A DNA stretch of 64,000 nt, taken from assembly GCA_038040345.1 (NCBI GenBank), contig JBBPIQ010000002.1:189747-253746 (forward strand), in the 5' to 3' direction. Every line of letters begins with the position of its first letter. Position 1 is the first letter of the stretch. Of this stretch, positions 43,697 through 59,441 are shown piece by piece. Position numbers and translations under genes: made by a program. Source of the DNA: Chloroflexota bacterium (GTDB taxonomy: Bacteria > Chloroflexota > Limnocylindria > P2-11E). The notes below the pieces were generated by a model that saw only the letters and a program-made list of their open reading frames with translations, was not told the origin of the DNA and did no database searches.

Positions 43697-45037
43697 ATGG
43701 ACGAGCGCTGGCGCGGGCTCACCGTGGGCCTCGTTCTCAACGTGACGTTCGTCGCGTTCGAAGCGCTCGCGATCGCGACGATCATGCCGCTCGTCGCCGA
43801 CGACCTCGGCGGCATCGAGCTGTACGGATGGGTCTTCAGCGCTTTCCTTCTCGCGAATCTCGTCGGGATCGTTGTGGCCGGCGAATTCGCCGACCGCTTT
43901 GGTCCGGCGATTCCATTCGGCGCCGGCCTCGCTCTATTCGCGCTCGGCCTTCTCATCGGTGGCCTTGCGCCATCGATGCCTGTGCTCGTGGCGGCTCGTG
44001 CGGTGCAGGGACTCGGCGCCGGCGCGATACCCGCCGTCGCTTACCTGGTGATCGGCCGCACGTATCCAGATGCGCTCCGGCCGCGCATGTTCGCGATCCT
44101 CTCGACGGCCTGGGTCGTTCCCGGCATCGCCGGCCCGGCCCTCGCCGCGTTCGTCGCGGACCACATCGGCTGGCGCTCCGTGTTCCTTGGTCTCCTGCCA
44201 CTCGTGATCGTCGCCGGATCGCTCGCGCTGCGCGAGCTGCGCACCGTTCCGGGCAATCCCGATCGCGCGGCTCGGGGCGTGCTCGTCGATGCGGTCCGCG
44301 TCGCGTCAGGAGCGGGGCTCGCGCTCGCAGGCCTTCAGGCCCGCGACATCCTCATAACGCCCGCGCTCCTCGCGATCGGACTTCTGGCCGGTCTCCCAGC
44401 GCTGCGAAAACTCCTGCCGCGCGGCACGTTCACAGCGCAGGGCCCATTGCCCGCGGCGGTGCTTTTAAAGGGGATCCTCACATTCGCATTCTTCGCGGCG
44501 GATGTGTTCGTGCCGCTCACCGTGACAACCATCCGCGGCGAGAGCGTCGTCCTCTCGGGGCTCGCGCTCACCGGCGGCACGATCGCCTGGACCACGGGCG
44601 CGTGGATCCAGGAGCGGACGGTCTTGCGCGTTGGCGAGGCTCCGCTCGTGCGGAACGGCTTTCTCCTGATCGCGATCGGGATCGCCGGGATGGGTGTCGT
44701 GCTGGCGGGCGCGGTGCCCGCGTGGCTCTGCGTCCCGGTGTGGGGCATCGCCGGTCTCGGGATCGGGATGGCATACAGCTCGATCTCGCTCACCGTGTTG
44801 CGCCACGCCCCCTCGGGCAGCGAAGGCGCGAGCGCCGCGGCGATGCAGCTCGCGGACGTTCTCGGGAACGCGCTCGGCACCGGCATCGGCGCGGTCGCGG
44901 TCGCCGCCGCGGTCGCCGGACTGGGCAGCGCTGTCGTCGGAGTTGCGATCACCGACGCCATGGCCTGCGCCGTCGCGATCGCAGGCGTGTTCGTCGCTTC
45001 AAGGCTCCGTTCGCCCGACGCCGCGCCCTCGATGTAG
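43697..45037 (+). CDS. MFS transporter
   Basis: about 12 TM helices; GEFADRFGP and LGLLIGGLAP loops; start taken at MDERWRGL. Confidence 0.7.
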   Translation: MDERWRGLTVGLVLNVTFVAFEALAIATIMPLVADDLGGIELYGWVFSAFLLANLVGIVVAGEFADRFGPAIPFGAGLALFALGLLIGGLAPSMPVLVAARAVQGLGAGAIPAVAYLVIGRTYPDALRPRMFAILSTAWVVPGIAGPALAAFVADHIGWRSVFLGLLPLVIVAGSLALRELRTVPGNPDRAARGVLVDAVRVASGAGLALAGLQARDILITPALLAIGLLAGLPALRKLLPRGTFTAQGPLPAAVLLKGILTFAFFAADVFVPLTVTTIRGESVVLSGLALTGGTIAWTTGAWIQERTVLRVGEAPLVRNGFLLIAIGIAGMGVVLAGAVPAWLCVPVWGIAGLGIGMAYSSISLTVLRHAPSGSEGASAAAMQLADVLGNALGTGIGAVAVAAAVAGLGSAVVGVAITDAMACAVAIAGVFVASRLRSPDAAPSM

Positions 45038-45583
45038 AGCCCATCGGGTAGCGACCAGGAGCAGCGCGGTGTAGCCGACGGTCGCCACGACCAAGACCGC
45101 CTTTAGATCCGAGACGTCTGCGCCTGTTTGGTCCCGCATGAACCAGATGACGGCCTGGTAGTCCGTGTACGCGCTTTCTGCTCCGCGGGGCAGCGTCTCG
45201 GGCACTTTGGCCTGAAGACCTTGCACGAGCTGGAGGATGAGATCGCCTGACCACGCGATGCCGATCGCCGATAGGAGCATCCACCGCTTCAGCCCGGCCC
45301 GCTCGCCACTTGCGAGCAAAAGAATGGCAAACCAGCAAAGCAGTTGGGTGAAGACGACCCCGCCGAAGTTGACGAGTACGTTCGCAATGTCTCCCAGTCG
45401 GGATGAGTCGTACAAGTTGCAGCCCATACAGGCGCTTTGTCCCTGCGCCTGATAGAGCACGTAATGAGCGGAATCATCGCCAAGTAGCTTCGCGAATATG
45501 GTGTGTCCGATCTCGTGGACGTTGACCATGACGAAGAGGAACGCAAGCCCGAACACAAGCCACCGGAAAAATGCCGCGATCAC
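44999..45583 (-). CDS. membrane protein with HExxH motif (putative zinc metalloprotease)
   Basis: VNVHEIGHTIFAKLLGDD within a hydrophobic 194-aa protein; convergent overlap with the MFS gene. Confidence 0.45.
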   Translation of the reverse strand: MIAAFFRWLVFGLAFLFVMVNVHEIGHTIFAKLLGDDSAHYVLYQAQGQSACMGCNLYDSSRLGDIANVLVNFGGVVFTQLLCWFAILLLASGERAGLKRWMLLSAIGIAWSGDLILQLVQGLQAKVPETLPRGAESAYTDYQAVIWFMRDQTGADVSDLKAVLVVATVGYTALLLVATRWALHRGRGVGRTEP

Positions 45584-45607
45584 GACGGGAACCCTACTCT
45601 GTGAGTT

Positions 45608-46061
45608 ATGGCCGAGATTCGTATCGTGCGCGCCGGGCGCAACGAGCTCGATGACCTCGCTCCGCTCTTCGATGGCTACCGTCAGTTCTACGGACAGCGG
45701 TCGGACCTCGCCGCCACGCGCGCGTTCCTCGGCGATCGGATCGAGCGCGACGAGTCCGTGACCTATGTGGCGTACACGGGTTCACGAGAGCCGGTCGGGC
45801 TTCACCCAGCTCTACCCATCGTTCTCGTCCGTCTCACTCAAGCGCCTCTGGATCTTGAACGACCTCTTCGTTCGCTCCGACATTCGACGTGGCGGGGTCG
45901 GGCGAGCGTTGCTCGAGCGAGCGAGGCGCCACGCGGTCGACACGGGCGCCAAGGGCCTCGTTCTCAACACTGGGGTAACGAACACGCCCGCGCAGACCTT
46001 GTACGAATCTTGCGGCTGGAAGAAGGACGACGAATTCTTCCAGTACCACCTGTTCCTCTGA
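45608..46061 (+). pseudogene. GNAT acetyltransferase with +1 frameshift
   Basis: N-terminal part in ORF 45608..46069 and C-terminal GNAT core (GVGRALLERARRHAV...GW) in ORF 45765..46061 join if one G is removed from the GGG run at about 45797-45799. Confidence 0.55.
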
Positions 46062-46091
46062 GCCGATAGCTCTTCCTCGGCCCACGGGCGC

Positions 46092-46128
46092 ACTTGACAG
46101 CTGGCCTGTAAGCCTGTAGTAAACCAAG
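46092..46128 (+). promoter_or_regulatory. sigma-70-like promoter upstream of arsR-like gene
   Basis: TTGACA, 17-nt spacer, TAGTAA in an AT-rich island. Confidence 0.35.
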
Positions 46129-46159
46129 TAGTTATTTAACCGGAAGGTACAATAGATAG

Positions 46160-46510
46160 ATGGCGACCGACCACCTCAGCGCGACGTTCGCGGCCATCGC
46201 CGACCCGACGAGGCGGGCGATCCTCGCGCGCCTGGCGTCGGGAGAGGCCTCGGTCACGGAGCTCGCGAAGCCGTTCGACATGACGCTTCCCGCGGTCTCG
46301 AAGCATCTCAAGGTGCTCGAAAACGCGGAGCTGATCTCGCGCGGACGGGACGCCCAGTGGCGCCCGGCGCGGCTCGAGGCGGCGCGTCTGCATGAGGCCG
46401 CGAAATGGATGGAGCGCTACCGGATCTTCTGGGAGCAGAGCCTCGATCGCCTCGACCAGCATCTGCGTGAACTACAAGGGGAGGACAAGAAGCATGGCCG
46501 CAAGAAATAG
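46160..46510 (+). CDS. ArsR/SmtB family transcriptional regulator
   Basis: FAAIADPTRRAILARLASGEASVTELAKPFDMTLPAVSKHLKVLENAELI wHTH. Confidence 0.8.
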   Translation: MATDHLSATFAAIADPTRRAILARLASGEASVTELAKPFDMTLPAVSKHLKVLENAELISRGRDAQWRPARLEAARLHEAAKWMERYRIFWEQSLDRLDQHLRELQGEDKKHGRKK

Positions 46511-46994
46511 CGTGAGCGCGCCGGAGCGGACCGTCGTCACGACCCGGGTCTTCGATGCGCCGCGCGAGATGGTCTACAAAGCCTGGACCGATCCGAAGCA
46601 GCTCGCGCAGTGGTTCCCGCCAAAGGACTTCACCTCGCCGCGGTGCGAGGTCGACGCGCGGCCGGGTGGCATCTTCCGCGTCGACATGAAGGGACCGGAC
46701 GGGCCGCCGTTCAACGGCGAGGTACTTCCCGGCAAGGGCATCTTCCGCGAGGTCGTGCCGAACGAACGCCTGGTATTCACGTTCGGCGGCGAGGAAGGCG
46801 CGCCGCCCCCGCCGATCCTCGTCACCGTTCTCTTCGAGGCGCAGGGCAACAAGACCAAGCTGACTATCCACCAGACCGCCGAGACGGTCGCCGAGTACGA
46901 GTCGCTCATCAAGCTTGGCGTGACCGAGGGCCTGCGACAGAGCTTCGATAAGCTGGACGAGCTCCTCGCTCGCCGTAAAGGACAAGCGCGGTGA
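46494..46994 (+). CDS. SRPBCC (AHSA1-like) family protein
   Basis: RVFDAPREMVYKAWTDPKQLAQWF...; start at internal ATG of ORF 46392..46994. Confidence 0.7.
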   Translation: MAARNSVSAPERTVVTTRVFDAPREMVYKAWTDPKQLAQWFPPKDFTSPRCEVDARPGGIFRVDMKGPDGPPFNGEVLPGKGIFREVVPNERLVFTFGGEEGAPPPPILVTVLFEAQGNKTKLTIHQTAETVAEYESLIKLGVTEGLRQSFDKLDELLARRKGQAR

Positions 46995-47128
46995 GCACGA
47001 CGAATCGAATCCTCACTTTGACCCGCGTGTTCGACGCGCCGCGGGAACTTGTATGGAAGGCCTACACCGACCCAAAGCACATCGTGAAGTGGGCGTTCTC
47101 CAGGCGTAGTCGCGTAGAGTCCGCGTAG
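46991..47128 (+). pseudogene. truncated second SRPBCC gene (N-terminal about 36 codons only)
   Basis: VSTTNRILTLTRVFDAPRELVWKAYTDPKHIVKWA, then an unrelated tail and stop. Confidence 0.4.
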
Positions 47129-47147
47129 CACGTGGGGGAGCAGACGA

Positions 47148-47540
47148 ATGGCCGCACCGAAGACCGCCGCCAAGAAGCCCGCGGCAAAGAAGACCGGCGC
47201 GGGCGTGGACGATCGCTATTTCGCTGAGCAGCCCGCCGACAAGGCGGCGTTGCTCGAGAAGCTGCGCGCCCTCGTGAACAAGGGAGTGCCCGACGCGGAC
47301 GTCTCGATCAAGTGGGGCGTGCCGTTCTACCAAATGAATGGAAAGAACATCTGCGCGCTCGCCTCATTCAAGGACCACGTCGGCATCAACTTCTTCGCGC
47401 CGCCGAGCGCGTTCGTCGATCCAGGCAAGAAGCTCGAGGGCAGCGGCAAGGGCAATCGAATGCTCAAGGTCCGCACCGCCGCCGATGTCGACAGCGCCAG
47501 CATTCTTCGTTGGCTCAAGGCGGTCGTCGCTGCGAACTAG
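47148..47540 (+). CDS. DUF1801 (YdhG-like) domain protein
   Basis: Lys-rich N-terminus; WGVPFYQMNGKNICALASFKDHVGINFF. Confidence 0.6.
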   Translation: MAAPKTAAKKPAAKKTGAGVDDRYFAEQPADKAALLEKLRALVNKGVPDADVSIKWGVPFYQMNGKNICALASFKDHVGINFFAPPSAFVDPGKKLEGSGKGNRMLKVRTAADVDSASILRWLKAVVAAN

Positions 47541-47585
47541 GACTAGGCTTCACGTAGCGACCAAACCAACTCAGGGGGAGACAAC

Positions 47586-47996
47586 ATGAACCTCAATGGC
47601 CTACTCATCGGAACAGAGAACCCGGACCGACTCAGGGACTACTACACCAAGCTCTTCGGCAAGCCCAACTGGGACGAGGGCGGCTACTTCGGATGGCAGA
47701 TCGGTAGTGGCTCGATGACCGTCGGGCCGCACGACCAGGTCAAGGGAAAGAACACCACGCCAGGTCGGCTGATCTGGAACATCACCGCGGCCGACGTCAA
47801 GGCAGAGTTCGAAAAACTGAAGGCCGCGGGCGCCACCGTCGTGAAGGAGCCCTACCAGATGGATGAGGCTCCTGGGCAGCAGATGTGGATCTCGACGTTC
47901 GCCGACCCGGACAACAACTATTTCCAGCTCATGACCCCGATGGAGATGCCGACGGAGGCTGACCGACCGGTGGCCGATATCGGAGCGCGTTCCTAA
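47586..47996 (+). CDS. VOC (glyoxalase/bleomycin-resistance fold) family protein
   Basis: 136 aa, typical small VOC architecture. Confidence 0.55.
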   Translation: MNLNGLLIGTENPDRLRDYYTKLFGKPNWDEGGYFGWQIGSGSMTVGPHDQVKGKNTTPGRLIWNITAADVKAEFEKLKAAGATVVKEPYQMDEAPGQQMWISTFADPDNNYFQLMTPMEMPTEADRPVADIGARS

Positions 47997-48011
47997 GGCC
48001 GGGCTCTTCGC

Positions 48012-48392
48012 CTAGCGGGTCTTTTCGATCTCGGCGACGCGGGCTCTTACGATCTTCGTCACGAGCCCGTACGGAAGCGGCTTGTTTGCGGGAAACTGAA
48101 GTGTGCCTTTGCTCTGCACGTAGGCCGTGAGTTCGTCGGCGTGCGCGTCGATGAACTTGCGGCTGGTGCCGTACAGGGCGGTGTGAGCCTTCCAATAGGC
48201 GAAGTACGCAACTCGTTTCCCGTCTTGCTTGAACCCCGCCATCCCGTAGCTGACGATCTCGGTCGCCTTCGGCGCGGCTGCCTTGATCGTCTGGCGCAGC
48301 TTCGTCAGTGCGGCGCGCCTGTCCTTCGGTGCGGACGCGATGTAGTCATCGACGGTCTTCGAGGGTTTCGTGGTGACCTTCCGTATCGGCAT
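48012..48392 (-). CDS. DUF1801 domain protein
   Basis: VAYFAYWKAHTALYG; real start at internal ATG of ORF 48012..48677. Confidence 0.55.
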   Translation of the reverse strand: MPIRKVTTKPSKTVDDYIASAPKDRRAALTKLRQTIKAAAPKATEIVSYGMAGFKQDGKRVAYFAYWKAHTALYGTSRKFIDAHADELTAYVQSKGTLQFPANKPLPYGLVTKIVRARVAEIEKTR

Positions 48393-48394
48393 TT

Positions 48395-48736
48395 CTAGAC
48401 CGCCGGCCCCGAGTGCTCGATCCAATACACCATTGCGAACACAACGGCGGCCGCGAAAACCTGCAGCGCGAGCACTGGGAGCGCCGCTCGTGGCGCGCGC
48501 GGGAGCCAGGTCAGCGCGAAATACCCCATCACCGCCAGTTGCACCGGCATGAGGAGCTGGAAGAGGTGCGCCTCGGTGCCCTCGTCGGCCTGGCGGACCA
48601 GCCCATTCGTGGCGACGAATCGCACACCTAGGACCAGCAGCAAAACGGGAATCGCGATCGGCAGCCAACCGCTCCAATGCGTTAGCGGTGAGGTTCGTGG
48701 ACTCGTGGTGGTCGCCATTGGCGAAATGCTACCCAC
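48395..48736 (-). CDS. small membrane protein
   Basis: 113 aa with three hydrophobic helices. Confidence 0.3.
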   Translation of the reverse strand: MGSISPMATTTSPRTSPLTHWSGWLPIAIPVLLLVLGVRFVATNGLVRQADEGTEAHLFQLLMPVQLAVMGYFALTWLPRAPRAALPVLALQVFAAAVVFAMVYWIEHSGPAV

Positions 48737-48748
48737 GACGCGACGACT

Positions 48749-49120
48749 TCATGATCCTCTGAAGCGATCGAGCTCGCGGCGCTCGCGCTTTGTCGGACGG
48801 CCGCTGCCCGGCTCTCGTACGGCTACGCGTGGCTGTCGCTTGACCACCGGCGCAGGCGGGCTGTGGTCGACCATGCACTTCGCCGCCGCCGGCGCCCCAA
48901 CGCGCTTTTCGATGATGACCACGACCTCGAGAATGCGGGGACGCCCGACGAACGCGTCGATGCGGTCGCCGACCTTCACCTGCGTCGACGCCTTGGCCGC
49001 ACCGCTGTTCACGCGCACATGGCCGCCACGGCAGGCGGCCGTCGCTTCCGACCGAGACTTATAGATCCGGACGGCCCACAGCCAGATGTCTACCCGGGTT
49101 TTTTCTGTGCCTGTGACCAT
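48749..49120 (-). CDS. S4-domain RNA-binding protein (Hsp15/HslR-like)
   Basis: RVDIWLWAVRIYKSRSEATAACRGGHVRVNSGAAKASTQVKVGDRI; basic C-terminal tail. Confidence 0.55.
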   Translation of the reverse strand: MVTGTEKTRVDIWLWAVRIYKSRSEATAACRGGHVRVNSGAAKASTQVKVGDRIDAFVGRPRILEVVVIIEKRVGAPAAAKCMVDHSPPAPVVKRQPRVAVREPGSGRPTKRERRELDRFRGS

Positions 49121-49486
49121 CAAGGCTCCGAGAGCGAACGTTAACGACTGGCACAAGCCTCGGTGCATCGCGACCGTCCCGGGCGCGGGCGACCGATTTG
49201 TCTCCGATTTCGACACCGAAGACACCTAGGCTCGTTTAGCGGCACCTCTCAGCGCATCGGACCCAAAGATAGGCCCGGTTTGTTTCCTGGGTTACGAAAT
49301 CGTCATCGGGGTGTGGCTCCGATTCGCGCATGATTCGGTTCGTGGCGCGACGTTGGTCGGTGCCACCTGCACGGCGATCTGATCGCTGACGCCAGGGGGG
49401 GCGGCGCGATCGTCTACACGGCGCAAAGAGCGTCGGAGCGCGCGGATACGACAAGACGAAGAAGATTTGAAAGAAGGCACCTCTCA

Positions 49487-50452
49487 ATGACAACGAACAT
49501 TACCCACGCGCGTCCTCGAGTTCGCGGTCCAAAATTACTGCTGACAGCTGCGGTCGCGGTCATGCTCGCGATGAGCATGCTCACGTTGGGAGGACCCACC
49601 GCGAACGCGGCGGCTCCAGGACCATCCCTTGGAATCGCTGGCAACTTCGCGATCCTCAGCGCAGCCGACGGGGGTTTGGGAGCGGTGACCTGTGTTGGCC
49701 CCGCCACGATCATCGGAAACCTGGGCTCCTCTGGCGTCCCGGCCTCGATCACTCCAGGCACGTGCACGATTACGGGGTCGCAGACCGCGCCGGTCTCGGC
49801 TGGAGTTGTAGCGGCCTTTGACAAGGCGTATGCGGCGCTTGGGCTCGTGCCGTGCACCACGACCATCCTTACTGCGGCCTACACGACCACGACGCTCTCG
49901 CTCGGGTCCGGTGTCACCTGTTTCCCGAACGGGCTGACGTTCACAGACAGCACGTTGATCCTCACCGGGAGCGGGCCCTGGCTCATCGAGGTCGGGACTC
50001 TGGCCACCGGCAACAGCGGCGCTCTCACGGGCACCAATCTCCATATGGTCCTGCCCGCTGGCGCGAACCCGTGTGACGTGACGTGGTGGGTCCGCGCGGG
50101 TGCGTCCATGACCACTTCGAACGCCACCGGCACGCAGTTCTTCGGCACGGTTCTCGCCGGGGCGGCAATCACCGTGATCGGGACGACCGTTGGAACCTTC
50201 AACGGGCGGGCTCTCGCCAAAGCCGCGGTGTCGATCACCGGCGGCACCTTCACCGGCTGCACAGGCGGAAGCCTTGGCGGCGGAGGCAAGAACAAGGACA
50301 AACACGAGGCCTGCAACCAGGGCGTAGGCAACGGGCCCGAGGACTGTGATCCGGGCAACTCGAACCAGGGCGACGACGACCGTTCGAACGACGAGAACGG
50401 CGGGACGCCTGGGCACCCTGGCCGCCAAGGCGGCAACGACAAGGACGACTAG
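49487..50452 (+). CDS. secreted DUF3494 (ice-binding-like beta-helix) family protein
   Basis: signal peptide; LGIAGNFAILSAADGGLGAVTCVGPATIIGNLGSSG motif; Thr/Gly-rich repeats; acidic Gly/Asp/Asn-rich tail. Confidence 0.65.
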   Translation: MTTNITHARPRVRGPKLLLTAAVAVMLAMSMLTLGGPTANAAAPGPSLGIAGNFAILSAADGGLGAVTCVGPATIIGNLGSSGVPASITPGTCTITGSQTAPVSAGVVAAFDKAYAALGLVPCTTTILTAAYTTTTLSLGSGVTCFPNGLTFTDSTLILTGSGPWLIEVGTLATGNSGALTGTNLHMVLPAGANPCDVTWWVRAGASMTTSNATGTQFFGTVLAGAAITVIGTTVGTFNGRALAKAAVSITGGTFTGCTGGSLGGGGKNKDKHEACNQGVGNGPEDCDPGNSNQGDDDRSNDENGGTPGHPGRQGGNDKDD

Positions 50453-50473
50453 GGCCGCACTGGCCAAGAACGA

Positions 50474-50514
50474 GGCGGAGGGACCCCTTCGGGGCCCTTC
50501 CGCCTTTTTTCTTT
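50474..50514 (+). terminator. rho-independent terminator between convergent genes
   Basis: GGCGGAGGGACCCC-TTCG-GGGCCCTTCCGCC hairpin followed by TTTTTTCTTT. Confidence 0.6.
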
Positions 50515-50524
50515 AGCTCGACTT

Positions 50525-51595
50525 CTAGAGCTCGCGATCCAGGGCGAGCAAGATCCTGCACATGCGGTCGACGCGGCGGCGTGACCAGCCGGGCTCTCGC
50601 TCATGCGTGTCGAGTCCCGGTGCGGAGTTCACCTCTAATACGGTGCACCTCTTTGGCAGCGCATCGGATGGTTGACTGAGGACTAGGTCCAGGCTGGCGA
50701 GGCGCAGGCCCATGTCGCCAACCACTCGGATAGCGAGCGCTCCTAGCTTGGGGTGCAGCACTTCAGTCACCAGCCGAACGTCACCACCCACGCCGAGATT
50801 GCCGCATGGCAGAAGCTCGACGCGTTGACCTGCGGTAGGCACCGTTTCGAGCGCCTGGCGACTGTGGGCGAGGTGCCTGCCCACCCGGACATCGTCTACG
50901 CGCAGCCGGGTCGGGTGCCCTGCTGCGCGGCTGCGTCGCTGGCCAGTCGCGATGAGCTTGCGAATACTGGAGTGGCCATCACCGAGCACGTACGGCCGCG
51001 TCTTCTCGCTCGCCATCAGGACCTCGCCGTCGAGGACGACTATCGAGCAGTCGCTGCCGCGTGCGATGCGCTGCACCAGGAGCTTCTTGGAGGCGGCGAA
51101 GACCTCACGGGCGGCCGCGTAGAACTGCGCGCGGGTATAGACGACGCACACGTGCTGGTCGCCGGAGCTGTCGTTTGGTTTGAGTAGCACTGGCAACCCG
51201 AGCCTCTGCGCGTACGCGTAGGCGCCCCCGATGCCGCGCGCCTCGTGGAGCCGCCCGTAATACGAGAAGCTGCGTCCAGTCGGGACCGTGTGGCCCAACT
51301 GCTTGAGCACACGCGCGGTGGCGTCCTTATCGAGAGCGATCGCCGCCGCACCAAGGGTGTTGAGGTCCCATTGCAGTCGGTGGAAGTAGCGCACGCGACC
51401 TGACGGAAGGGTGATCCTGCCCGAGTTGTCCGCCTTGGGTATGACCTCCAGTTTGGCACCGACGAGGTCGCAGGCCTCCTTGAGACGCGAGAGGAACGGC
51501 GTCTTCACCTCGCGATCTATGGCCGCCTGAGGCGATCGAGTTCGCGGGGCTCTCGCTTGACCACGGGCACAGGCGGGCTGTGGTCGACCAGACAC
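50525..51595 (-). CDS. ATP-grasp family ligase (RimK/GshB-like fold)
   Basis: C-terminal VLEVNSAPGL motif; alternative start about 51508; N-terminus overlaps the S4 remnant. Confidence 0.55.
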   Translation of the reverse strand: MSGRPQPACARGQARAPRTRSPQAAIDREVKTPFLSRLKEACDLVGAKLEVIPKADNSGRITLPSGRVRYFHRLQWDLNTLGAAAIALDKDATARVLKQLGHTVPTGRSFSYYGRLHEARGIGGAYAYAQRLGLPVLLKPNDSSGDQHVCVVYTRAQFYAAAREVFAASKKLLVQRIARGSDCSIVVLDGEVLMASEKTRPYVLGDGHSSIRKLIATGQRRSRAAGHPTRLRVDDVRVGRHLAHSRQALETVPTAGQRVELLPCGNLGVGGDVRLVTEVLHPKLGALAIRVVGDMGLRLASLDLVLSQPSDALPKRCTVLEVNSAPGLDTHEREPGWSRRRVDRMCRILLALDREL

Positions 51596-51720
51596 TTCGC
51601 CGCCGCACTGTTCACGCGAACCCGGCCACGGCAGGCGGCCGTCGCCTCCGAACGGGTCTTATAGATCCGGACGGCCCACAGCCAGATGTCTACCCGGGCC
51701 CTCTCGATATGGGCGTGAAA
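51517..51720 (-). pseudogene. degenerate duplicate of the S4-domain gene at 48749-49120
   Basis: about 190 bp near-identical to 48749-49110 with two in-frame internal deletions (about 54 and 117 bp) that remove the S4 core. Confidence 0.5.
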
Positions 51721-51752
51721 GGCGACGGAGCGGATTTTGTGCTCCCGTGCAT

Positions 51753-52262
51753 TCAACCATGGGGAGAGTTCTCGGAAGGCGAGCGATTTGGACTGAGCAG
51801 TCGCATGAAGATCAGGAGGCTGCTGACCAATAGGGCTGGCACATAGATGGCCACAATGACCCAATTCACGCCCAGCGAATACGTGAACACATTGTCGCGG
51901 ACCGATTGAACGATCGCGTTGACCGTATCTAGCATTCCGACGATCACGCAAAGCCAGACCAATGGGATCGCGCCACTGAAACGGGCACGGAGGGCGATGA
52001 GTGCCAGTAGTGCCAAAAATGCCGTCGCCAGGTCGCCATATCCGATCATCACCCGGAACTCCATCGGTACTCCCGCGTCGACGGAGCCGGGAGCCAGGAT
52101 CGTCCCGCCAACAACGCGAAACGCGTGGATCCAGAGCAGTGGCGCGAGGGCTACCTCCCGCGGCAACTTGGACAGGCGAGGCGCTACGTACCAGAAGCCG
52201 ATGAGCGCATATGCCGCCAGGCTCAACGTGAATTGAATTCCGAAGAGCGCGATTGGGTCCAT
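51753..52262 (-). CDS. membrane protein, 169 aa
   Basis: 4-5 predicted TM helices. Confidence 0.35.
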   Translation of the reverse strand: MDPIALFGIQFTLSLAAYALIGFWYVAPRLSKLPREVALAPLLWIHAFRVVGGTILAPGSVDAGVPMEFRVMIGYGDLATAFLALLALIALRARFSGAIPLVWLCVIVGMLDTVNAIVQSVRDNVFTYSLGVNWVIVAIYVPALLVSSLLIFMRLLSPNRSPSENSPHG

Positions 52263-52334
52263 GAATCGTCCCTCCCGTGGTCATAGTCTTCCATTCATGA
52301 ACATCTGGGATGTCGTACGCCAGAGGGTCGGAGC

Positions 52335-53231
52335 GTGATCCTCGTGACTGGCGCCACCGGCCTAAATGGTGGGGAGCTGGTGCGGAGGCTGTCGGCCCGC
52401 GGCGTCGCCGTACGTGCGCTGGTTCGCAATGCCACTGGCGCCAATGCTCCAAAAGCGGCCGAGTTGTCGCGGCTGGCCGGCGTCGAGGTTGCTGAAGCCG
52501 ATATGGCCCGTCCGCAGACTCTGGCGTCTGCGCTCAAGGGAATCGATCGAGCGATGCTCATTTCTTCCTCAGACCCGACCATGGGGGAGGTCCAGTCGGC
52601 ATTCATCGACGCGGCAGCCCTTGCTGGTGTGCGTCATGTCGTGAAGCTCTCCGGAATAATCCCCGACCTCAACTCGCCTTTCAGGTTTGCTCGCATGCAC
52701 GGCGAGATCGAGCAGCACCTGGAGGCGTCGGGGATGGCCTTCACGCATCTCCGCGCGGGCGAGTTCATGCACGCGTACTTCCGCCAGGTGCCGTCGATCG
52801 TCAACAGAGGTGCCTTGTCCTTGCCAATGGCTGACGCGCGGATCGCAGCCATAGACATCGGCGACATCGCTGACGTGGCCGCGGACGTGCTCACCGGTTC
52901 GGGACACGAAGGCAAGACGTACCCGATCACGGGTCCGGATGCGCTCACGATGACCCAAGTCGCAGCTGCGCTCTCCGCTGCGACGGGCAAGCCGATCCGC
53001 TACGTCGACGTGCCGCCCGAAGACGCCAAGGCCGCCCAGCTCGCCGCGGGCATGCCTGCGTATCTCGCAGATGGACTGGCCGAGCTCTTCGCGGAGCGTC
53101 GTAAGGGAAAAGAGGCGACCGTGTCGCCGGTGATCCAGACGATCTTCAAGCGCCGACCCTTGAGCTTCGAAGACTTCGCTCGACGCCATGCGGCGGTCTT
53201 CCGCGGCGAACAGCCGGCGCCGAGGGTCTGA
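52335..53231 (+). CDS. NmrA-like NAD(P)-binding (atypical SDR) protein
   Basis: GTG start; ILVTGATGLNGGELVRRL Rossmann motif. Confidence 0.7.
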   Translation: MILVTGATGLNGGELVRRLSARGVAVRALVRNATGANAPKAAELSRLAGVEVAEADMARPQTLASALKGIDRAMLISSSDPTMGEVQSAFIDAAALAGVRHVVKLSGIIPDLNSPFRFARMHGEIEQHLEASGMAFTHLRAGEFMHAYFRQVPSIVNRGALSLPMADARIAAIDIGDIADVAADVLTGSGHEGKTYPITGPDALTMTQVAAALSAATGKPIRYVDVPPEDAKAAQLAAGMPAYLADGLAELFAERRKGKEATVSPVIQTIFKRRPLSFEDFARRHAAVFRGEQPAPRV

Positions 53232-53504
53232 CGAGTCTCCGCGATCGCGCCGGTCGATCTAAGAGCCGCGCGTTCTCCAGTTCGCACTCGGACTTAAGAC
53301 CAGGCTCGCGGCGCGACCGAGCGGTCGTCGGTCTCGACAGGGCATAGTCGGACTGCTAGTACTACCGAGTTCGGCGTACTGCGGTCATGGGCAAGGCCGC
53401 CCGGGGTGGGGAGGAGTCATTAGGACGAACCTTCCGCAGCGTCGTGGCGGCACGCCTGCAAGACCGAGCACCGCGCTCGAACAGAGATAGAGGGGAGACA
53501 CGGA

Positions 53505-54125
53505 ATGACCGAATCGCGTATTAGCCGACGTGGGATCTTGAAGACCGCTGGGGCGCTAGGCGTTATCGGAGCGCTTTCGTCATCGGCGACCGCGCTCGCG
53601 GATGACGGCGAAGGGGGAGAAGGGGCAAGATTCCGCTGGGACATCATCAGCATCGACTTTACGACCGGCACGGTGTCGGCGGGGGGCAGCGCGTCCGCCC
53701 GCGCAAACCTCGACACGGGGATCATCACGCTCACCGGCTCGGGGACCTTCCGACCTGGCCAGCGCAAAGCGGTGACTGGCGGGGGGACCTGGTCGACGAC
53801 CGGGACCGCGGGTGTCGGCCACGGCACCTACAGGGTGACTGAGCTCGTCGAGTGGCACCTGGCCCCGGGGACGTTCCCGCTGACGATCGACGCCATCGGC
53901 GACAAAGCCGACGCTCGCGCAGGACTGGCGGTCCTTCGCGTCCGGTACTCAGACCAGAGCGAGGGGATCCTCGTGGTGAGCTGCACGATCGCTGGGACCC
54001 CGTCTTCGGTGTTTGAGGGGATCAGGACGTCCAGGGGCTTTGTCTATTACTGGAACGGCGACATCGCGGCAGACAACGTGAACCACACGCTCTTCCACTT
54101 CCTGTCAAAGGCGGAAAAGGACTAA
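53505..54125 (+). CDS. Tat-signal secreted hypothetical protein
   Basis: twin-arginine motif SRRGILKTAGALGVIGAL...A; Thr/Gly-rich. Confidence 0.5.
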   Translation: MTESRISRRGILKTAGALGVIGALSSSATALADDGEGGEGARFRWDIISIDFTTGTVSAGGSASARANLDTGIITLTGSGTFRPGQRKAVTGGGTWSTTGTAGVGHGTYRVTELVEWHLAPGTFPLTIDAIGDKADARAGLAVLRVRYSDQSEGILVVSCTIAGTPSSVFEGIRTSRGFVYYWNGDIAADNVNHTLFHFLSKAEKD

Positions 54126-54214
54126 GACCGCTGAGAGCAGAGGAAGGCGGCGCAGCGGCCGCCGCCTTCCTGACCCCGCGAGCCCTCGACACTTCGGCTA
54201 TTCAGCGCTGCCGC

Positions 54215-54793
54215 TCAAGCGCTCGAACCAAAACCAGAGGAGTCGCTCGTGTCCGGCGGCACTGGCGCTCCGTCCTTCGTTCCCGTGGAGACGAAGTTCG
54301 CCTTCAGCTCGCGCAACGGGTCAGGGCCGTTCGAGTGCCTAGCGCTCGCACCGAGCGCTGTGCGGGGTACTGCGGGCAGCGGCAACTTCGATACCAACGT
54401 CATGTATGTCACCGGGACGATCACCTCGGCTGAGGTCAACGGGCAGACCGCGGTCTTGAAGGGGTGCGGCGGTCTTGAAATTGATCGTTGTGCGTGCAGG
54501 GAGCGGCAGGAGTAGGCGCGCTTCTGGTCGATGATGATCGGCGCGTTCAGGTGCTCGATCCGCTCGACGTCGGGCTGCCCGTAGTGCGGCATGAAGCCTT
54601 GGACGAAGAAGGTGAACGTCTCGTTGAGCTGCCGCTGCGCCTCGGCGGCGATCGTGTCGAACACGAGCGAGGACTTCCCCGAGCCGGAGATGCCGGTGAA
54701 GACTGTGATCTTCTGCTTCGGGATGGACAGCGAGACGTTCTTGAGGTTTTTCTCGCGGGCGCCGTGGACCTCGATGAACGGATGGTCGGTCAT
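54215..54793 (-). pseudogene. UvrA-like ABC ATPase, N-terminal fragment only
   Basis: first about 93 codons match the UvrA N-terminus (GAREKNLKNVSLSIP, Walker A GISGSGKSSL, FDTIAAEAQRQ, IIIDQK); the remainder of the ORF is unrelated. Confidence 0.5.
54441..54480 (+). other. tRNA-Ser(UGA)-derived 5' fragment
   Basis: exact 16-nt match TGCGGCGGTCTTGAAA to the D-stem/anticodon arm of the tRNA at 56651; partial repeat CCGCGGTCTTGAA just upstream. Confidence 0.4.
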
Positions 54794-54900
54794 GCGTCGA
54801 CCCTAGAGCGCCGCGAGCATCACTTCAGGCAGCGCCGGATGCTGGCGGCGTCGAGGTCCTTCTCGCACCGCCGCTTGAGCATCCGGCGTTCTTACTCGGG

Positions 54901-55374
54901 CTAGCGGGCGTGCGCGGCCACCCAAGTGGCGAGGCTGTCGAGAGACCCGCGGGCGCCCTCCGCGGCGTAGTACTTGGCGACCTTCTCGTCTCTCTCTTCC
55001 TTGCTGCCGAAGACCAAACGGAGTGTCGCCTCGGTCGTGGCGCCGCGCTCGGCGAGCGTCAGGACGGTCTTTACCTGGTTGGGGTCGTCCTTGCCCATCC
55101 CGTACATCCAGACGATACGTTCCGGTGGGGTGATCTCTTTCCAAACGAAGTGGTTCGGGTACTCGCTGCCGTCGGGGCCGTGGATCGTCGCGTCCCAGAC
55201 ACCGCCCGGCTTGAAGTCGAACGAGTGCGTGGTGATCTCGCCGCCCTTCGGCGCACACCACTCCTCGAGGTGGGCGGCGCTGGTGAACGCGTCGAACACG
55301 AGTCGTCGTGGCCCCTCGATGATCCGCGAGACTACGATCTCGCGCTCCGCCTCAGTGCTTGTTTCGGTTGCCAT
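54901..55374 (-). CDS. SRPBCC (AHSA1-like) family protein
   Basis: RIIEGPRRLVFDAFTSAAHLEEWCAPKG... Confidence 0.7.
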   Translation of the reverse strand: MATETSTEAEREIVVSRIIEGPRRLVFDAFTSAAHLEEWCAPKGGEITTHSFDFKPGGVWDATIHGPDGSEYPNHFVWKEITPPERIVWMYGMGKDDPNQVKTVLTLAERGATTEATLRLVFGSKEERDEKVAKYYAAEGARGSLDSLATWVAAHAR

Positions 55375-56737: not shown

Positions 56738-56744
56738 CAGTGTG

Positions 56745-57020: not shown

Positions 57021-57022
57021 GG

Positions 57023-57763: not shown

Positions 57764-57772
57764 CGGCCCATT

Positions 57773-58463: not shown

Positions 58464-59441
58464 GTGTCCGACATGAAGAACTCAAAGGCACTCGCTGCGA
58501 CGGTCGTCATCGCGCTCATCATTGCGATCGGCGCGATGGCAGGCACCGCTGCGAATGCGGCAACTTCCACTGTTCCCCTGGGAACGGCTGCCAGCTTCTC
58601 GGTCCTCGGCGGTCTGGCAGTGACCAACACAGGCCCGACCACCACCGACAAAGACGTAGGGGTTTGGCCCGGTACCTCGGTGGGCGCGTGGCCGCCCGGA
58701 ATAGCCGGCGGGGCAATCCACGCGGGTGACGCCGTCGCGCAGCAGGCCCAGAGCGACCTGACCACCGCGTATAACAACGCCGCAGGACGAACGCCGTTCA
58801 CGGTTGTGGGTGGCGATCTCGTCGGGCAGACCCTCGTTGGTGGCGTCTATAGAGGCGGCACGCTCGGTCTCACAGGAGTGCTGACCCTCGATGGGCAGAA
58901 CGATCCAGCGTCCGTCTGGATCTTCCAGACGCCGGCAACCCTCATCACCGGGTCGTCGAGTCTTGTGAGCTTCATCAACGGCGCGAGCCCGTGCAACGTC
59001 TTCTGGCAGGTCGGGAGCTCAGCGACTCTGGGAACGGGCTCCACCTTCGTCGGCACGATCATGGCTCTAACCAAGATCACGGTCACTACCGGCGTGACCG
59101 TCTATGGCAGAGCGCTGGCCCGGAATGATGCCGTGACATTGGACAACGACCGATTCCTAACGTCAGTGTGCGCATCTGCGCTAAACATTCCGCCGACGCG
59201 GCCACCGTTCACGGTTGCACCTTCGGCAACTCCGATAGCCGCGCCCACAGCGACCCCGATCGGTGCGGCCACTCCAACCGCAGCGCCGACAGTCGCTCCA
59301 ACCGCAGCGCCGACAGTTCATCTAACAGTCCTGCCATCAACGAGCACGGCGGAGTCGTGGGGTCCGCTCGCGCTGCTTGGCCTGGCCCTGGCCAGCTTCG
59401 GGGCGCTTCTGCTGCTTCGTAGACCACTTCGGAACTTCTAG
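58464..59441 (+). CDS. secreted DUF3494 (ice-binding-like) protein with Pro/Thr/Ala linker and C-terminal hydrophobic-basic tail
   Basis: signal peptide; LGTAASFSVLGGLAVTNTGPTT; PTAAPTVAPTAAPT linker; C-terminus LPSTSTAE + hydrophobic helix + RRPLRNF. Confidence 0.65.
   Translation: MSDMKNSKALAATVVIALIIAIGAMAGTAANAATSTVPLGTAASFSVLGGLAVTNTGPTTTDKDVGVWPGTSVGAWPPGIAGGAIHAGDAVAQQAQSDLTTAYNNAAGRTPFTVVGGDLVGQTLVGGVYRGGTLGLTGVLTLDGQNDPASVWIFQTPATLITGSSSLVSFINGASPCNVFWQVGSSATLGTGSTFVGTIMALTKITVTTGVTVYGRALARNDAVTLDNDRFLTSVCASALNIPPTRPPFTVAPSATPIAAPTATPIGAATPTAAPTVAPTAAPTVHLTVLPSTSTAESWGPLALLGLALASFGALLLLRRPLRNF

What the first reader, a model, noticed from the sequence alone, without database searches (positions are those of the whole stretch)
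49487..50452. First of two divergent DUF3494 (ice-binding-like) paralogues, in mobile-looking context
The window encodes two secreted proteins with the N-terminal signature of the DUF3494 beta-helix family (here, and 58464-59441). This copy has an acidic Gly/Asp/Asn-rich tail and sits between the S4 repeats. An 11-mer GGCACCTCTCA occurs just upstream of its start (49476-49486) and again upstream of the divergent S4 gene (49241-49251), suggesting a shared regulatory site.
Basis: partly seen in the sequence, partly recalled or inferred. Interest (0 to 1): 0.5.

Follow-up and report, generated by a model that had tools for sequence, protein, structure and literature searches.

The report
Secreted beta-helix protein with unknown conserved tail
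The gene is a real, secreted, divergent member of the "ice-binding-like" DUF3494 beta-helix family, and its "acidic tail" is an almost invariant 45-residue peptide module found on many unrelated secreted proteins and absent from the databases searched, while the proposed 11-base regulatory site looks like chance.

Summary
ORF 49487-50452 (+) is real. It is identical to a hypothetical protein of a Chloroflexota MAG. The local Pfam copy gives no PF11999 hit even at E<=10. Other evidence still places it in DUF3494: a profile-profile match (hhalign probability 100%, E 5.6e-44), a confident AlphaFold beta-helix (residues 45-262, pLDDT >90), and Foldseek, whose top 31 PDB hits are all DUF3494 ice-binding proteins.

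The main new result is the tail. Residues 276-316 (C-N-Q-G-V-G-N-G-x-E-x-C-D-P-G-N-S-N ... S-N-D-E-x-G-G-x-P-G-x-P-G) are the most conserved part of the protein. A profile of it finds 226 protein clusters. The motif is almost always at the C-terminus, and two thirds of the best 150 clusters lack a DUF3494 core. Those carriers include PKD/HYR/TSP3/EGF giants, SLH proteins and small secreted proteins. The module also forms the C-terminal part of lasso-type precursor-like peptides beside PqqD/B2-protease genes. It has no Pfam, NCBIfam, PDB or literature match.

The S4 repeats are real; the second copy is a decayed pseudogene. The region has low GC. The 11-mer exists, but it is one of 51 comparable repeat pairs in the window and is not conserved in orthologues.

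Function is inferred: an extracellular surface-binding protein whose tail is a binding module. Ice binding is untested.

The parts
49487..49612 (+). N-terminal export signal (aa 1-42): basic n-region RPRVRGPK, hydrophobic LLLTAAVAVMLAMSMLTL, and A-N-A before the mature end
   Evidence: Read from the sequence. AlphaFold predicts a helix at residues 17-31 with low pLDDT. The segment is conserved in orthologues. No signal-peptide predictor was available, so the cleavage site is inferred.
49619..50272 (+). Divergent DUF3494-type right-handed beta-helix with a flanking alpha-helix (aa 45-262). It has six invariant Cys: C69, C93, C123, C145, C196 and C258.
   Evidence: AlphaFold pLDDT is above 90 over this range, with a helix at 105-118. 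The Foldseek PDB top 31 hits are all DUF3494 ice-binding proteins, with E 3e-9 to 5e-6 and target TM-score 0.65-0.80; the next hit has E 0.34. hhalign gives probability 100% and E 5.6e-44. Pfam PF11999 gives no hit.
50273..50311 (+). Gly/Lys-rich linker (GGSLGGGGKNKDKHEA), variable in length and sequence among homologues
   Evidence: Alignment A2.
50312..50449 (+). Conserved C-terminal module (aa 276-321): CNQGVGNGPEDCDPGNSNQGDDDRSNDENGGTPGHPGRQGGNDKDD. The stop codon is at 50450-50452.
   Evidence: It is invariant in 51 homologues from several phyla. A profile of it finds 226 clusters at E<=1e-3 among 1.84 billion representatives, and the profile match ends a median of 1 residue from the C-terminus. 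Conservation is 88-98% at about 20 positions, and is the same in carriers without a DUF3494 core. Pairwise identity is 0.97 at codon positions 1+2 and 0.68 at position 3. It has no Pfam, NCBIfam or PDB match. AlphaFold pLDDT is below 50.
50472..50512 (+). Terminator-like GC-rich hairpin followed by a T-run, between this gene and the convergent ATP-grasp gene
   Evidence: Sequence read. The terminator scan found it at 50490-50506 plus the T-run.
49468..49477 (+). Purine-rich TGAAAGAAGG, the probable ribosome-binding region. It is the conserved part of the immediate upstream sequence.
   Evidence: It is kept upstream of the orthologues in L001, L003 and L006.
49476..49486 (+). 11-mer GGCACCTCTCA, copy 2. 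It overlaps the end of the purine-rich stretch and the spacer before the ATG.
   Evidence: Its core is not conserved in orthologues.
49241..49251 (+). 11-mer GGCACCTCTCA, copy 1. It lies about 120 nt upstream of the probable S4 start (ATG at 49120, preceded by GGAG).
   Evidence: There is no counterpart in the L001 upstream region.
48749..49225 (-). Intact S4-domain gene (repeat copy 1). The likely true start is the ATG at 49120.
   Evidence: Pfam S4 at E 5.8e-11. Start context read.
51527..51698 (-). Decayed second copy of the S4 gene (pseudogene fragment, with internal deletions of about 117 and 51 nt). It overlaps the 5' end of the longest reading of the ATP-grasp ORF.
58464..59441 (+). Canonical DUF3494 paralogue with a Pro/Thr/Ala linker and an LPSTS + TM + RRPLRNF cell-wall sorting signal. 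It is the orthologue of the gene that directly precedes the tail-bearing gene in relatives.
   Evidence: PF11999 at E 1.5e-53. TIGR01167 LPXTG_anchor scores 15.9 bits, exactly the cut-off. It is 54-58% identical to the L003 and L006 first genes.

Best explanation
The gene encodes a Sec-exported extracellular protein with two working parts. The first is a divergent DUF3494-type beta-helix (aa 45-262), the scaffold that binds ice in characterised relatives and that is thought to bind other surfaces in bacteria from non-icy habitats. The second follows a short Gly/Lys linker. It is a 45-residue C-terminal peptide module: a Cys-x10-Cys loop, CNQGVGNGxExCDPGNSN, followed by SNDExGGxPGxPG. This module is a portable, autonomously selected unit. 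I propose that the module is the protein's binding end. It would be disordered on its own and become ordered on binding a ligand (a metal ion, a mineral or matrix surface, or a partner protein), so that it tethers or targets the beta-helix outside the cell. Shown here: the ORF, the fold, family membership by profile and by structure, the conservation of the module, its portability, its C-terminal position and protein-level selection on it. Inferred: secretion (from the signal sequence, and from T2SS neighbours in proteobacterial relatives), the Cys-Cys disulfide, and the binding role. Ice binding is neither shown nor excluded.
For: Fold and family. More than 1,282 homologues were found, most carrying a precomputed PF11999 hit. 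Module: it is invariant in 51 homologues while the core falls to about 55% identity. A profile finds 226 clusters at E<=1e-3 and 99 at E<=1e-10. Of the best 150, 101 score no hit to a profile of this subfamily's beta-helix core; by inspection some of the short ones are C-terminal fragments of DUF3494 proteins. Carriers include proteins with PKD, HYR, TSP3, EGF_CA, DUF11 and SLH domains. About 70% of the full-length carriers without a core have an N-terminal hydrophobic signal. The module co-occurs with independent anchoring devices (SLH domains, N-terminal membrane anchors), which argues that it is not itself the anchor signal. Twenty of 150 carriers have more than 20 residues after it, so a free C-terminus is not required. 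Third codon positions vary (identity 0.68) while positions 1 and 2 do not (0.97), so selection acts on the peptide. Its first half aligns to the DUF4215/TIGR02232 cysteine-rich acidic repeats of P0262. Neighbouring paralogues in relatives carry other C-terminal devices, including His/Asp/Lys-rich tails. About ten proteobacterial loci place the gene next to gspK-L-M-N-D genes. A genome scan found 177 relatives in more than 10 bacterial phyla, plus two MAGs labelled as archaeal.
Against: There is no direct evidence for any ligand. AlphaFold gives no confident structure for the module, either in the full protein (pLDDT 32-40) or alone with 70 sequences (mean pLDDT 46). No PDB relative was found. 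No conserved partner gene was found within 10 kb in 87 loci. The module also occurs as the C-terminal part of lasso-type precursor-like peptides next to PqqD, a B2-type protease and an ABC exporter. That fits a released or modified peptide at least as well as a tethering module. The beta-helix is missed by the curated Pfam model.
Confidence: 0.5

Rival explanations
1. The protein is a genuine ice-binding (antifreeze or ice-adhesion) protein used by a soil Chloroflexota bacterium during freeze-thaw, and the tail is an accessory.
For: The 31 best structural matches are all experimentally characterised DUF3494 ice-binding proteins. Several MAGs that carry relatives have isolate names suggesting permafrost, palsa or glacier-fed-stream samples (record titles). 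The literature treats DUF3494 as the commonest microbial ice-binding fold (PMC11645318).
Against: Sequence identity to characterised ice-binding proteins is only 20-28%. The Pfam model fails. This subfamily has six invariant core cysteines and a Gly-rich insertion that set it apart from the canonical neighbours. DUF3494 proteins are common in non-freezing habitats, where their function is unknown (PMC11645318). The tail also sits on many carriers that have no ice-binding fold.
Confidence: 0.2
2. The tail is a C-terminal sorting or processing signal recognised by a dedicated, not yet identified enzyme or secretion step. It would be analogous to LPXTG, PEP-CTERM or MYXO-CTERM, in line with the 'choice-of-anchor' pattern of the neighbouring paralogues.
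For: It is at the C-terminus, with the profile match ending a median of 1 residue from the end. It is portable between unrelated secreted proteins. It is very strongly conserved and predicted to be disordered. Paralogues in the same loci carry LPSTS, PGF-like or other TM-plus-basic signals.
Against: It has no hydrophobic segment or basic cluster of the kind that defines the known sorting signals. It occurs in monoderm, diderm and archaeal-labelled MAGs. No conserved partner gene was found in 87 neighbourhoods. It co-occurs with SLH domains and other anchors. Twenty of 150 carriers extend more than 20 residues beyond it, and two carry Cys-less internal copies.
Confidence: 0.2
3. The module is a bioactive peptide, either released by proteolysis at the basic residue before the first Cys or modified enzymatically. 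The DUF3494 domain would act as a carrier or pro-domain.
For: Stand-alone precursor-like peptides (P0320, P0325, P0310, P0317) have an N-terminal part that fits the lasso leader motif YxxPxLx3Gx5Tx, followed by a short Gly/Ser-rich stretch and then the module. In two independent loci they sit between PqqD plus a Transglut_core3 protease and an ABC exporter plus NTP_transf_5. Kinase and nucleotidyltransferase tailoring of lasso precursors is documented (PMC8498205). A Lys, Arg or His usually precedes the first Cys.
Against: No RiPP-type genes lie near the window gene or near the 87 DUF3494-type loci. No cyclase was seen in the two RiPP-like loci. RiPP-like contexts were seen only for four peptides (P0320, P0325, P0310, P0317). 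Cleavage is pure inference.
Confidence: 0.1
4. One reading: an ordinary DUF3494 paralogue with a low-complexity acidic tail, co-regulated with the divergent S4 gene through the shared 11-mer.
For: The 11-mer is present exactly twice, both times in the S4/DUF3494 intergenic region.
Against: Tail conservation rules out a meaningless low-complexity tail. The 11-mer is statistically unexceptional, is not conserved upstream of orthologues, is a direct rather than a palindromic repeat, and its upstream copy lies about 120 nt from the probable S4 start. The intergenic RNA fold is no better than shuffles (z +0.61).
Confidence: 0.03

Closest known systems
DUF3494 / Pfam PF11999 ice-binding proteins (e.g. 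EfcIBP 6EIO, LeIBP 3UYU, ColAFP 3WP9, FfIBP 4NU2, TisAFP 3VN3)
   Same: The predicted fold is the same: a right-handed beta-helix with a long flanking alpha-helix. Target TM-score is 0.65-0.80. Both have an N-terminal export signal. Profile-level sequence homology to canonical family members is clear.
   Different: Identity is only 20-28%. The curated Pfam HMM misses it. It has six invariant core cysteines and an SAADGGGGAVTC insertion. It carries a conserved 45-residue C-terminal module that was absent from the non-tail paralogues examined in neighbouring genes. Ice binding is untested.
SfIBP_1 of Shewanella frigidimarina (6BG8) and other DUF3494 proteins fused to surface-attachment modules (PEP-CTERM, DUF6701, beta-sandwich domains; PMC11645318)
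   Same: A DUF3494 domain combined with an extra module that is thought to place or tether it at a surface.
   Different: Here the extra module is a 45-residue Cys-loop, Gly/Asn/Pro-rich peptide. It has no membrane segment and matches no described family.
Cysteine-rich acidic repeat (NCBIfam TIGR02232 myxo_disulf_rpt / Pfam DUF4215)
   Same: The first half of the module, C-x-x-G-x-x-N-G-x-E-x-C-D-x-G-x-x-N, matches the repeat units of P0262 (ten stretches, E 5.4e-7). Pfam and NCBIfam identify those units as DUF4215 and TIGR02232.
   Different: The module itself does not reach either HMM. It is a single terminal copy with only two Cys. It has a second conserved half (SNDExGGxPGxPG) that the repeat lacks.
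C-terminal protein-sorting signals (LPXTG/sortase, PEP-CTERM/exosortase, MYXO-CTERM, PGF-CTERM) and Haft's 'choice-of-anchor' families
   Same: It is a terminal, portable tag on otherwise unrelated secreted proteins. Paralogues in the same loci carry such classical signals.
   Different: It has no hydrophobic helix or basic tail. No cognate sorting enzyme was found nearby. It occurs across very different envelope types.
Lasso-peptide-type RiPP precursors with B1 (PqqD) and B2 protease, kinase and nucleotidyltransferase tailoring (PMC8498205)
   Same: Stand-alone copies of the module follow a leader that fits YxxPxLx3Gx5Tx and lie in PqqD - Transglut_core3 - precursor - ABC - NTP_transf_5 clusters.
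   Different: The window protein has a Sec signal and a 220-residue folded domain instead of a leader, and no RiPP genes lie nearby. The RiPP-like loci show no cyclase. In some of these peptides no acidic residue is in the position needed to form a ring.

Membership tests
DUF3494 / Ice_binding (PF11999) | Match to the curated Pfam HMM above the gathering score (28.7 bits) | tested here: not met
   There are no Pfam hits for aa 1-321 even at E<=10. The paralogue at 58464-59441 scores 182 bits. Close relatives (76-82% identical) carry precomputed PF11999.14 hits, marked weak for P0017.
DUF3494 / Ice_binding (PF11999) | Significant sequence homology to bona fide family members | tested here: met
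   BLASTP against the window's canonical paralogue gives E 3e-8. hhalign of profile A2 against 39 canonical neighbours gives probability 100% and E 5.6e-44 over 197 columns. hmmsearch with the canonical profile gives 108 bits.
DUF3494 / Ice_binding (PF11999) | Right-handed beta-helix with one long alpha-helix packed alongside | tested here: met
   In the AlphaFold model, residues 45-262 have pLDDT above 90 and there is a helix at 105-118. The Foldseek PDB top 31 hits are all DUF3494 ice-binding proteins at probability 1.00, and the next hit has E 0.34. This rests on a prediction, not an experimental structure.
DUF3494 / Ice_binding (PF11999) | Ice-binding activity (thermal hysteresis, recrystallisation inhibition) | not testable with these tools
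   This needs recombinant protein. The literature notes many DUF3494 proteins of unknown function in non-freezing habitats (PMC11645318).
C-terminal sorting signals (LPXTG, PEP-CTERM, MYXO-CTERM type) | Short signature motif followed by a hydrophobic transmembrane segment and a basic cluster | tested here: not met
   The tail is entirely hydrophilic and gives no NCBIfam sorting-domain hit. By contrast the second paralogue has LPSTS + TM + RRPLRNF and reaches TIGR01167 at its cut-off.
C-terminal sorting signals (LPXTG, PEP-CTERM, MYXO-CTERM type) | A cognate sorting enzyme encoded in the genome, often nearby | tested here: inconclusive
   No gene family other than DUF3494 paralogues recurs in more than 14 of 87 neighbourhoods of +/-10 kb. 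Genome-wide co-occurrence could not be computed.
Cysteine-rich acidic repeat (TIGR02232 / DUF4215) | Match to the family HMM | tested here: not met
   Pfam gave no hit to the whole protein, tail included, at E<=10, and NCBIfam gave none to the tail alone at E<=1.
Cysteine-rich acidic repeat (TIGR02232 / DUF4215) | Motif C-G-D-G-x5-E-x-C-D-x-G-x-x-N, with paired cysteines | tested here: inconclusive
   The tail profile aligns to ten repeat units of P0262 at profile positions 5-22 (E 5.4e-7). Those units are DUF4215/TIGR02232. This is a resemblance over 18 residues only.
Lasso-type RiPP precursor (applies to the stand-alone module, considered for the tail) | Leader with YxxPxLx3Gx5Tx and adjacent B1 (PqqD) and B2 (transglutaminase-core protease) genes | tested here: not met
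   The window protein has a Sec-type signal and no PqqD or B2 genes nearby. The feature is met for P0320 and P0325 in L088 and L090. The leader motif is recalled from the literature, not recomputed here.

The most novel reading that the evidence does not exclude
The 45-residue module, CNQGVGNGxExCDPGNSN...SNDExGGxPGxPG, is an undescribed autonomous peptide unit that microbes deploy in two ways. One is as the C-terminal part of an exported lasso-leader-type (RiPP-like) precursor. The other is as a C-terminal appendage on secreted beta-helix, adhesin-like, SLH and possibly pilin-like proteins. In this reading it binds something chemically universal, for example a metal ion or a mineral or oxide surface. 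That would explain its near-invariance across more than 10 bacterial phyla plus two archaeal-labelled MAGs, and its company of His/Asp-rich tails. The tail-bearing DUF3494 subfamily would then be a non-ice, surface- or mineral-binding system of soil and groundwater microbes.
Probability: 0.25. Interest if true: 0.75.

Novelty: new variant of a known kind. Interest (0 to 1): 0.5.

Why it matters
DUF3494 is best known for ice binding, yet most bacterial members come from organisms with no obvious need for it, and their function is an open question. This subfamily ties the fold to a strictly conserved peptide module that also occurs on adhesin-like giants, on small secreted proteins and in RiPP-like precursors. 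That gives a concrete handle on the question: a 46-residue peptide that can be synthesised and tested for metal, mineral or partner binding. It also defines a protein module that Pfam and NCBIfam lack. Adding it would improve annotation of several hundred 'hypothetical' secreted proteins, and it shows that the curated PF11999 model misses a sizeable branch of its own family.

Tried and rejected
- Pfam and NCBIfam scans of the protein and of the tail alone gave nothing.
- A PDB sequence search with the protein and with the tail profile gave nothing meaningful.
- AlphaFold on the tail alone with a 70-sequence alignment gave mean pLDDT 46 and no secondary structure, so no fold search was attempted on it.
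- Rfam on 48-60 kb found only tRNA-Ser above its gathering score and nothing in the upstream leader. The leader's RNA fold is no better than shuffles (z +0.61), so a riboswitch or leader-RNA idea was dropped.
- A promoter scan of 49150-50650 found no sigma-70-like site.
- A search for a conserved partner gene in 87 neighbourhoods found only lineage-specific neighbours: T2SS genes in about 10 proteobacterial loci, Crp-type regulators, histidine kinases, thioredoxin in 6 loci and YggT in 8.
- The idea that the two paralogues were split by a simple insertion was rejected. The gene order is also reversed relative to relatives, and neither YggT nor the third gene of the relatives' cassette is in the window.
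- The third gene of that cassette looked sortase-like by eye, but it has no Pfam, NCBIfam or PDB support, so this is not claimed.
- Looking up the window protein and P0004 by exact sequence in the contig index found nothing.
- A profile search of the word-indexed protein database with the tail returned mostly short or fragmentary ORFs and added little beyond the RiPP-like peptides.
- Full-text searches for the motif strings found no paper.
- A genome-wide count of the 11-mer in the source MAG could not be done, because collection scans need at least 14 specified bases.
Full report
**Observation**

The ORF at 49487-50452 (+) exists and encodes 321 aa. It is 100% identical to 'MAG: hypothetical protein AABM40_07420 [Chloroflexota bacterium]' on a 374,644-nt contig. 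The second paralogue at 58464-59441 exists and matches Pfam PF11999 (Ice_binding) at E 1.5e-53.

The flagged copy gives no Pfam hit at all, even at E<=10.

The S4 repeats are real. An intact S4-domain gene lies at 48749-49225 (-) (Pfam S4, E 5.8e-11). A second, decayed copy at about 51527-51698 is 88-95% identical in the retained blocks and has two internal deletions. The 11-mer GGCACCTCTCA occurs exactly twice in the window, at 49241 and 49476.

**The folded domain**

Despite the Pfam miss, the protein belongs to the DUF3494 superfamily. The evidence is as follows.
- BLASTP against the window's canonical paralogue gives E 3e-8 over the C-terminal coils, with shared motifs PC[DN]V.W.V, F.GT..A and GRALA.
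- The protein has more than 1,282 homologues, most of which carry a precomputed PF11999.14 hit. For the 76%-identical P0017 that hit is marked weak.
- hhalign of a 51-sequence subfamily alignment (A2) against 39 canonical DUF3494 neighbours gives probability 100% and E 5.6e-44 over 197 columns. An HMM of those canonical proteins scores the window protein at 108 bits.
- AlphaFold2 with A2 gives pLDDT above 90 for residues about 45-262, a stack of beta-strands with a helix at 105-118.
- In a Foldseek search of the PDB, the first 31 hits are all DUF3494 ice-binding proteins, including 6EIO, 3UYU, 3WP9, 4NU2, 3VN3 and 6BG8. They have E 3e-9 to 5e-6 and target TM-score 0.65-0.80. The next hit drops to E 0.34.

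The N-terminus reads as a Sec signal: RPRVRGPK, then a hydrophobic stretch, then ANA. This is by inspection, since no predictor was available. The subfamily is set apart by six invariant core cysteines and a Gly-rich insertion, SAADGGGGAVTC.

**The tail**

In alignment A2 the C-terminal 45 residues are the most conserved part of the protein. CNQGVGNGPExCDPGNSNQG...RSNDExGGxPGxPGRxGG is essentially invariant, while the beta-helix core falls to about 55% identity.

A 48-position profile of the tail (A3) was searched against 1.84 billion representative proteins. It finds 226 clusters at E<=1e-3 and 99 at E<=1e-10. Several further results define the module.
- Position: the profile match ends a median of 1 residue from the C-terminus, within 5 residues in 105 of 150 and within 20 in 130 of 150.
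- Carriers: only 49 of the best 150 clusters contain the DUF3494-like core. By inspection, some of the shortest of the other 101 are C-terminal fragments of DUF3494 proteins.
- The other carriers include proteins of 600-2,350 residues with PKD, HYR, TSP3, EGF_CA, DUF11, DUF642 and prenyltransferase-like domains. They also include an SLH-domain protein and Tat- or Sec-signal proteins of 80-260 residues. Some have an N-terminus that looks Flp/TadE-like by eye, but Pfam is negative for one that was tested (P0225).
- Conservation is 88-98% at about 20 positions and is equally high in carriers without a DUF3494 core.
- In 46 genomic copies, codon positions 1+2 are 97% identical and third positions 68%. 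The constraint is therefore on the peptide, not on the DNA.
- The module has no Pfam, NCBIfam or PDB match, and the motif strings occur in no paper of the searchable library.
- Its first half resembles the DUF4215/TIGR02232 cysteine-rich acidic repeat.
- AlphaFold gives no confident structure for it, in context or alone.

**An unexpected second context for the module**

Four small peptides, P0320 (Kovacikia minuta CCNUW1), P0325, P0310 and P0317, have two parts of interest. The first is an N-terminal stretch..YTAPA[VL]QDWGKVV[DE]LT.., which fits the lasso-peptide leader motif YxxPxLx3Gx5Tx. That motif is my recollection of the literature. After a short Gly/Ser-rich stretch comes the module.

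In two independent loci (L088, L090) the gene order is PqqD, Transglut_core3 protease, peptide, an unknown gene, an ABC exporter and NTP_transf_5. This resembles lasso clusters with kinase and nucleotidyltransferase tailoring (PMC8498205). No cyclase was seen in either locus.

**Context here and elsewhere**

In related Chloroflexota contigs (L003-L007) the orthologue lies 45-110 nt downstream of a canonical DUF3494 gene. That gene has a Pro/Thr linker and an LPSTS + TM + basic sorting signal, and it is the orthologue of window 58464-59441 (54-58% identity). In L003-L006 a membrane-anchored protein of 213-230 residues with no family match follows the pair; L007 has a YggT-like ORF there instead.

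In the window the two genes are 8 kb apart and in the reverse order. The third gene and the YggT neighbour are absent. In L001 an 84%-identical orthologue stands alone, next to genes for a VCPO_2nd-domain protein (Pfam PF22778) and a glyoxal-oxidase-like protein.

A scan of 185,579 species genomes found 197 motif matches, of which 177 are relatives with the beta-helix core. They come from Chloroflexota, Dormibacterota, Gemmatimonadota, Beta- and Gammaproteobacteria (including cultured Ramlibacter), Nitrospirota, Myxococcota, Acidobacteriota, Planctomycetota, Methylomirabilota and Actinomycetota, and from two MAGs labelled as archaeal.

In 33 of 87 loci, further DUF3494 paralogues lie nearby with other C-termini: none, LPSTS, PGF-like, or His/Asp/Lys-rich. 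About ten proteobacterial loci place the gene beside gspK-L-M-N-D, which fits type II secretion in diderms. No partner gene is universal.

The window's 45-60 kb stretch has 63-65% GC, against 67-72% over nearly all of the rest. It contains tRNA-Ser, a decayed S4 copy, a truncated P-loop ATPase ORF that looks like a UvrA N-terminus by eye, and many small accessory genes. The context is therefore flexible rather than demonstrably mobile.

**The 11-mer**

With one mismatch allowed there are still only two sites, and 26 of 100 dinucleotide shuffles give at least two. The window contains 51 direct repeat pairs of at least 11 nt within 300 nt, against about 21 +/- 4 in Markov-2 simulations, so this pair is one of many.

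Upstream of the orthologues, the conserved pieces are the purine-rich TGAAAGAAGG and the start ATGACA. The 11-mer core reads GGTACCTCTCG, GGCTCCT-TCG or GGCTC---TCG.

The other copy lies about 120 nt upstream of the probable S4 start (ATG 49120, preceded by GGAG) and has no counterpart in L001. I conclude that it is a chance repeat overlapping the ribosome-binding region.

**Mechanism**

Best-supported reading, at confidence about 0.5. The protein is Sec-exported and extracellular. Its DUF3494 beta-helix provides a flat binding face. Its C-terminal module is a portable binding peptide that is disordered alone, probably has a Cys276-Cys287 loop, and tethers or targets the protein.

The arguments for a binding end rather than a sorting signal are these.
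- It has no hydrophobic segment.
- It co-occurs with independent anchors such as SLH domains and membrane anchors.
- Some carriers extend well beyond it.
- It is present across very different envelope types.
- No cognate enzyme gene was found nearby.

The rivals are ice binding (0.2, and not exclusive of the main reading), an unrecognised sorting or processing signal (0.2), and a released or modified peptide, as the RiPP-like relatives suggest (0.1). None of the functional statements has been tested experimentally.

**Comparison and novelty**

By fold and by profile homology the domain is a member of DUF3494, although it fails the curated HMM. The module fails the tests for known sorting signals and for TIGR02232/DUF4215. 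It works like an appended surface-interaction module, as in SfIBP_1 or the PEP-CTERM/DUF6701-bearing DUF3494 proteins discussed in PMC11645318.

I rate the whole as a new variant of a known kind: a known fold joined to a conserved, widely shared module that the databases searched do not describe. Interest is moderate (0.5). The gene itself is ordinary. The module is a real and testable lead on what non-ice DUF3494 proteins do.

Noticed in passing
L088 4911-10390 (Kovacikia minuta CCNUW1, CP083582.1) and L090 2-5759: Stand-alone copies of the tail module lie behind a lasso-type leader (YxxPxLx3Gx5Tx) and a short Gly/Ser-rich stretch. The cluster order is PqqD, Transglut_core3, peptide, an unknown gene, an ABC exporter and NTP_transf_5. 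No cyclase gene is seen. This may be an undescribed RiPP-like class.
   Followed up: partly
window 59170-59441: The second paralogue ends in a Pro/Thr/Ala-rich linker with 24-nt tandem repeats (59272/59296). It then has LPSTS, a hydrophobic helix and RRPLRNF, an LPXTG-type cell-wall sorting signal that scores exactly the TIGR01167 cut-off.
   Followed up: partly
L003 6831-9848; L006 6904-9880; L007 432-2449: In related Chloroflexota the LPSTS-anchored DUF3494 gene and the tail-bearing DUF3494 gene are adjacent. In L003-L006 a membrane-anchored Cys-rich protein of 213-230 residues follows them. By eye its motifs (AAHAYTQFGRI..GDIV.., LTSATCGP..VVQGR) recall a sortase, but Pfam, NCBIfam and a PDB sequence search give nothing.
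   Followed up: partly
L029 4957-5826; L047 4937-6136; L051 11157-12131; L055 11795-12817; L075 10797-12095: Neighbouring DUF3494 paralogues end in long His/Asp/Lys-rich tails (for example HDKDKHHDKDKHHDGDKD), which suggest metal binding. Some tail-bearing proteins, including the window's KNKDKHEA, have short (K/H)D runs just before the module.
   Followed up: no
L016, L017, L027, L029, L033, L041, L051, L052, L081, L086: In about ten proteobacterial loci the tail-bearing gene lies next to type II secretion genes gspK, L, M, N and D, in several of them directly downstream of gspN (confirmed by Pfam). This suggests a dedicated T2SS cargo relationship.
   Followed up: partly
window 51517-51700 and 50525-51595 (-): The decayed S4 copy overlaps the 5' end of the longest reading of a weak ATP-grasp-like ORF (Dala_Dala_lig_C and RimK, both below their cut-offs). 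That ORF's true start is probably further downstream.
   Followed up: no
window 45000-60000: This stretch has about 4-5 points lower GC (63-65%) than the rest of the window. It is packed with small accessory genes (DUF1801 x2, glyoxalase, ArsR, SRPBCC, NmrA, DinB). It also holds a truncated P-loop ATPase ORF (54215-54793) that looks like a UvrA N-terminus by eye, and tRNA-Ser at 56651-56738.
   Followed up: partly
window 56638-56877 (-): This short ORF begins LQEWEDFYTFDRPLGALGGQTPYERL, which by eye resembles the C-terminal end of an rve-type transposase or integrase. The rest of the ORF overlaps tRNA-Ser on the other strand. Pfam is negative.
   Followed up: no
window 49242-49261 and 50645-50668: GCACCTCT followed by CAGCGCATCGGA recurs inside the 3' part of the ATP-grasp ORF, with a 4-nt insertion (ttgg). 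This is 20 matching bases in all. It may be chance, with a rough post-hoc estimate of a few percent.
   Followed up: no
window 49325-49400 vs L001 9845-9925: About 75 nt of the non-coding region upstream of the gene is alignable with the upstream region of the 84%-identical orthologue, although the neighbouring genes differ. It may be a promoter or 5' UTR carried along with the gene. It has no Rfam match and no unusual RNA fold.
   Followed up: partly
codon 288 (window 50348-50350) and homologous codons in 46 loci: The invariant Asp of CDPGNS is encoded by GAT in 41 of 46 copies, although these genomes are GC-rich and GAC would be expected. This synonymous bias is unexplained.
   Followed up: no
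window 53505-54125 (+): A 206-residue protein with a twin-arginine-like signal (SRRGILKTAGALGVIGAL) and no Pfam match.
   Followed up: no
P0201, P0205 (representative proteins, source unknown): Two internal, Cys-less copies of a module variant (HFNQGLGNGSEGGDPGKS..SNDE.GRTPG) occur in Ser/Cys-rich proteins. The motif is therefore not always terminal or disulfide-bearing.
   Followed up: no
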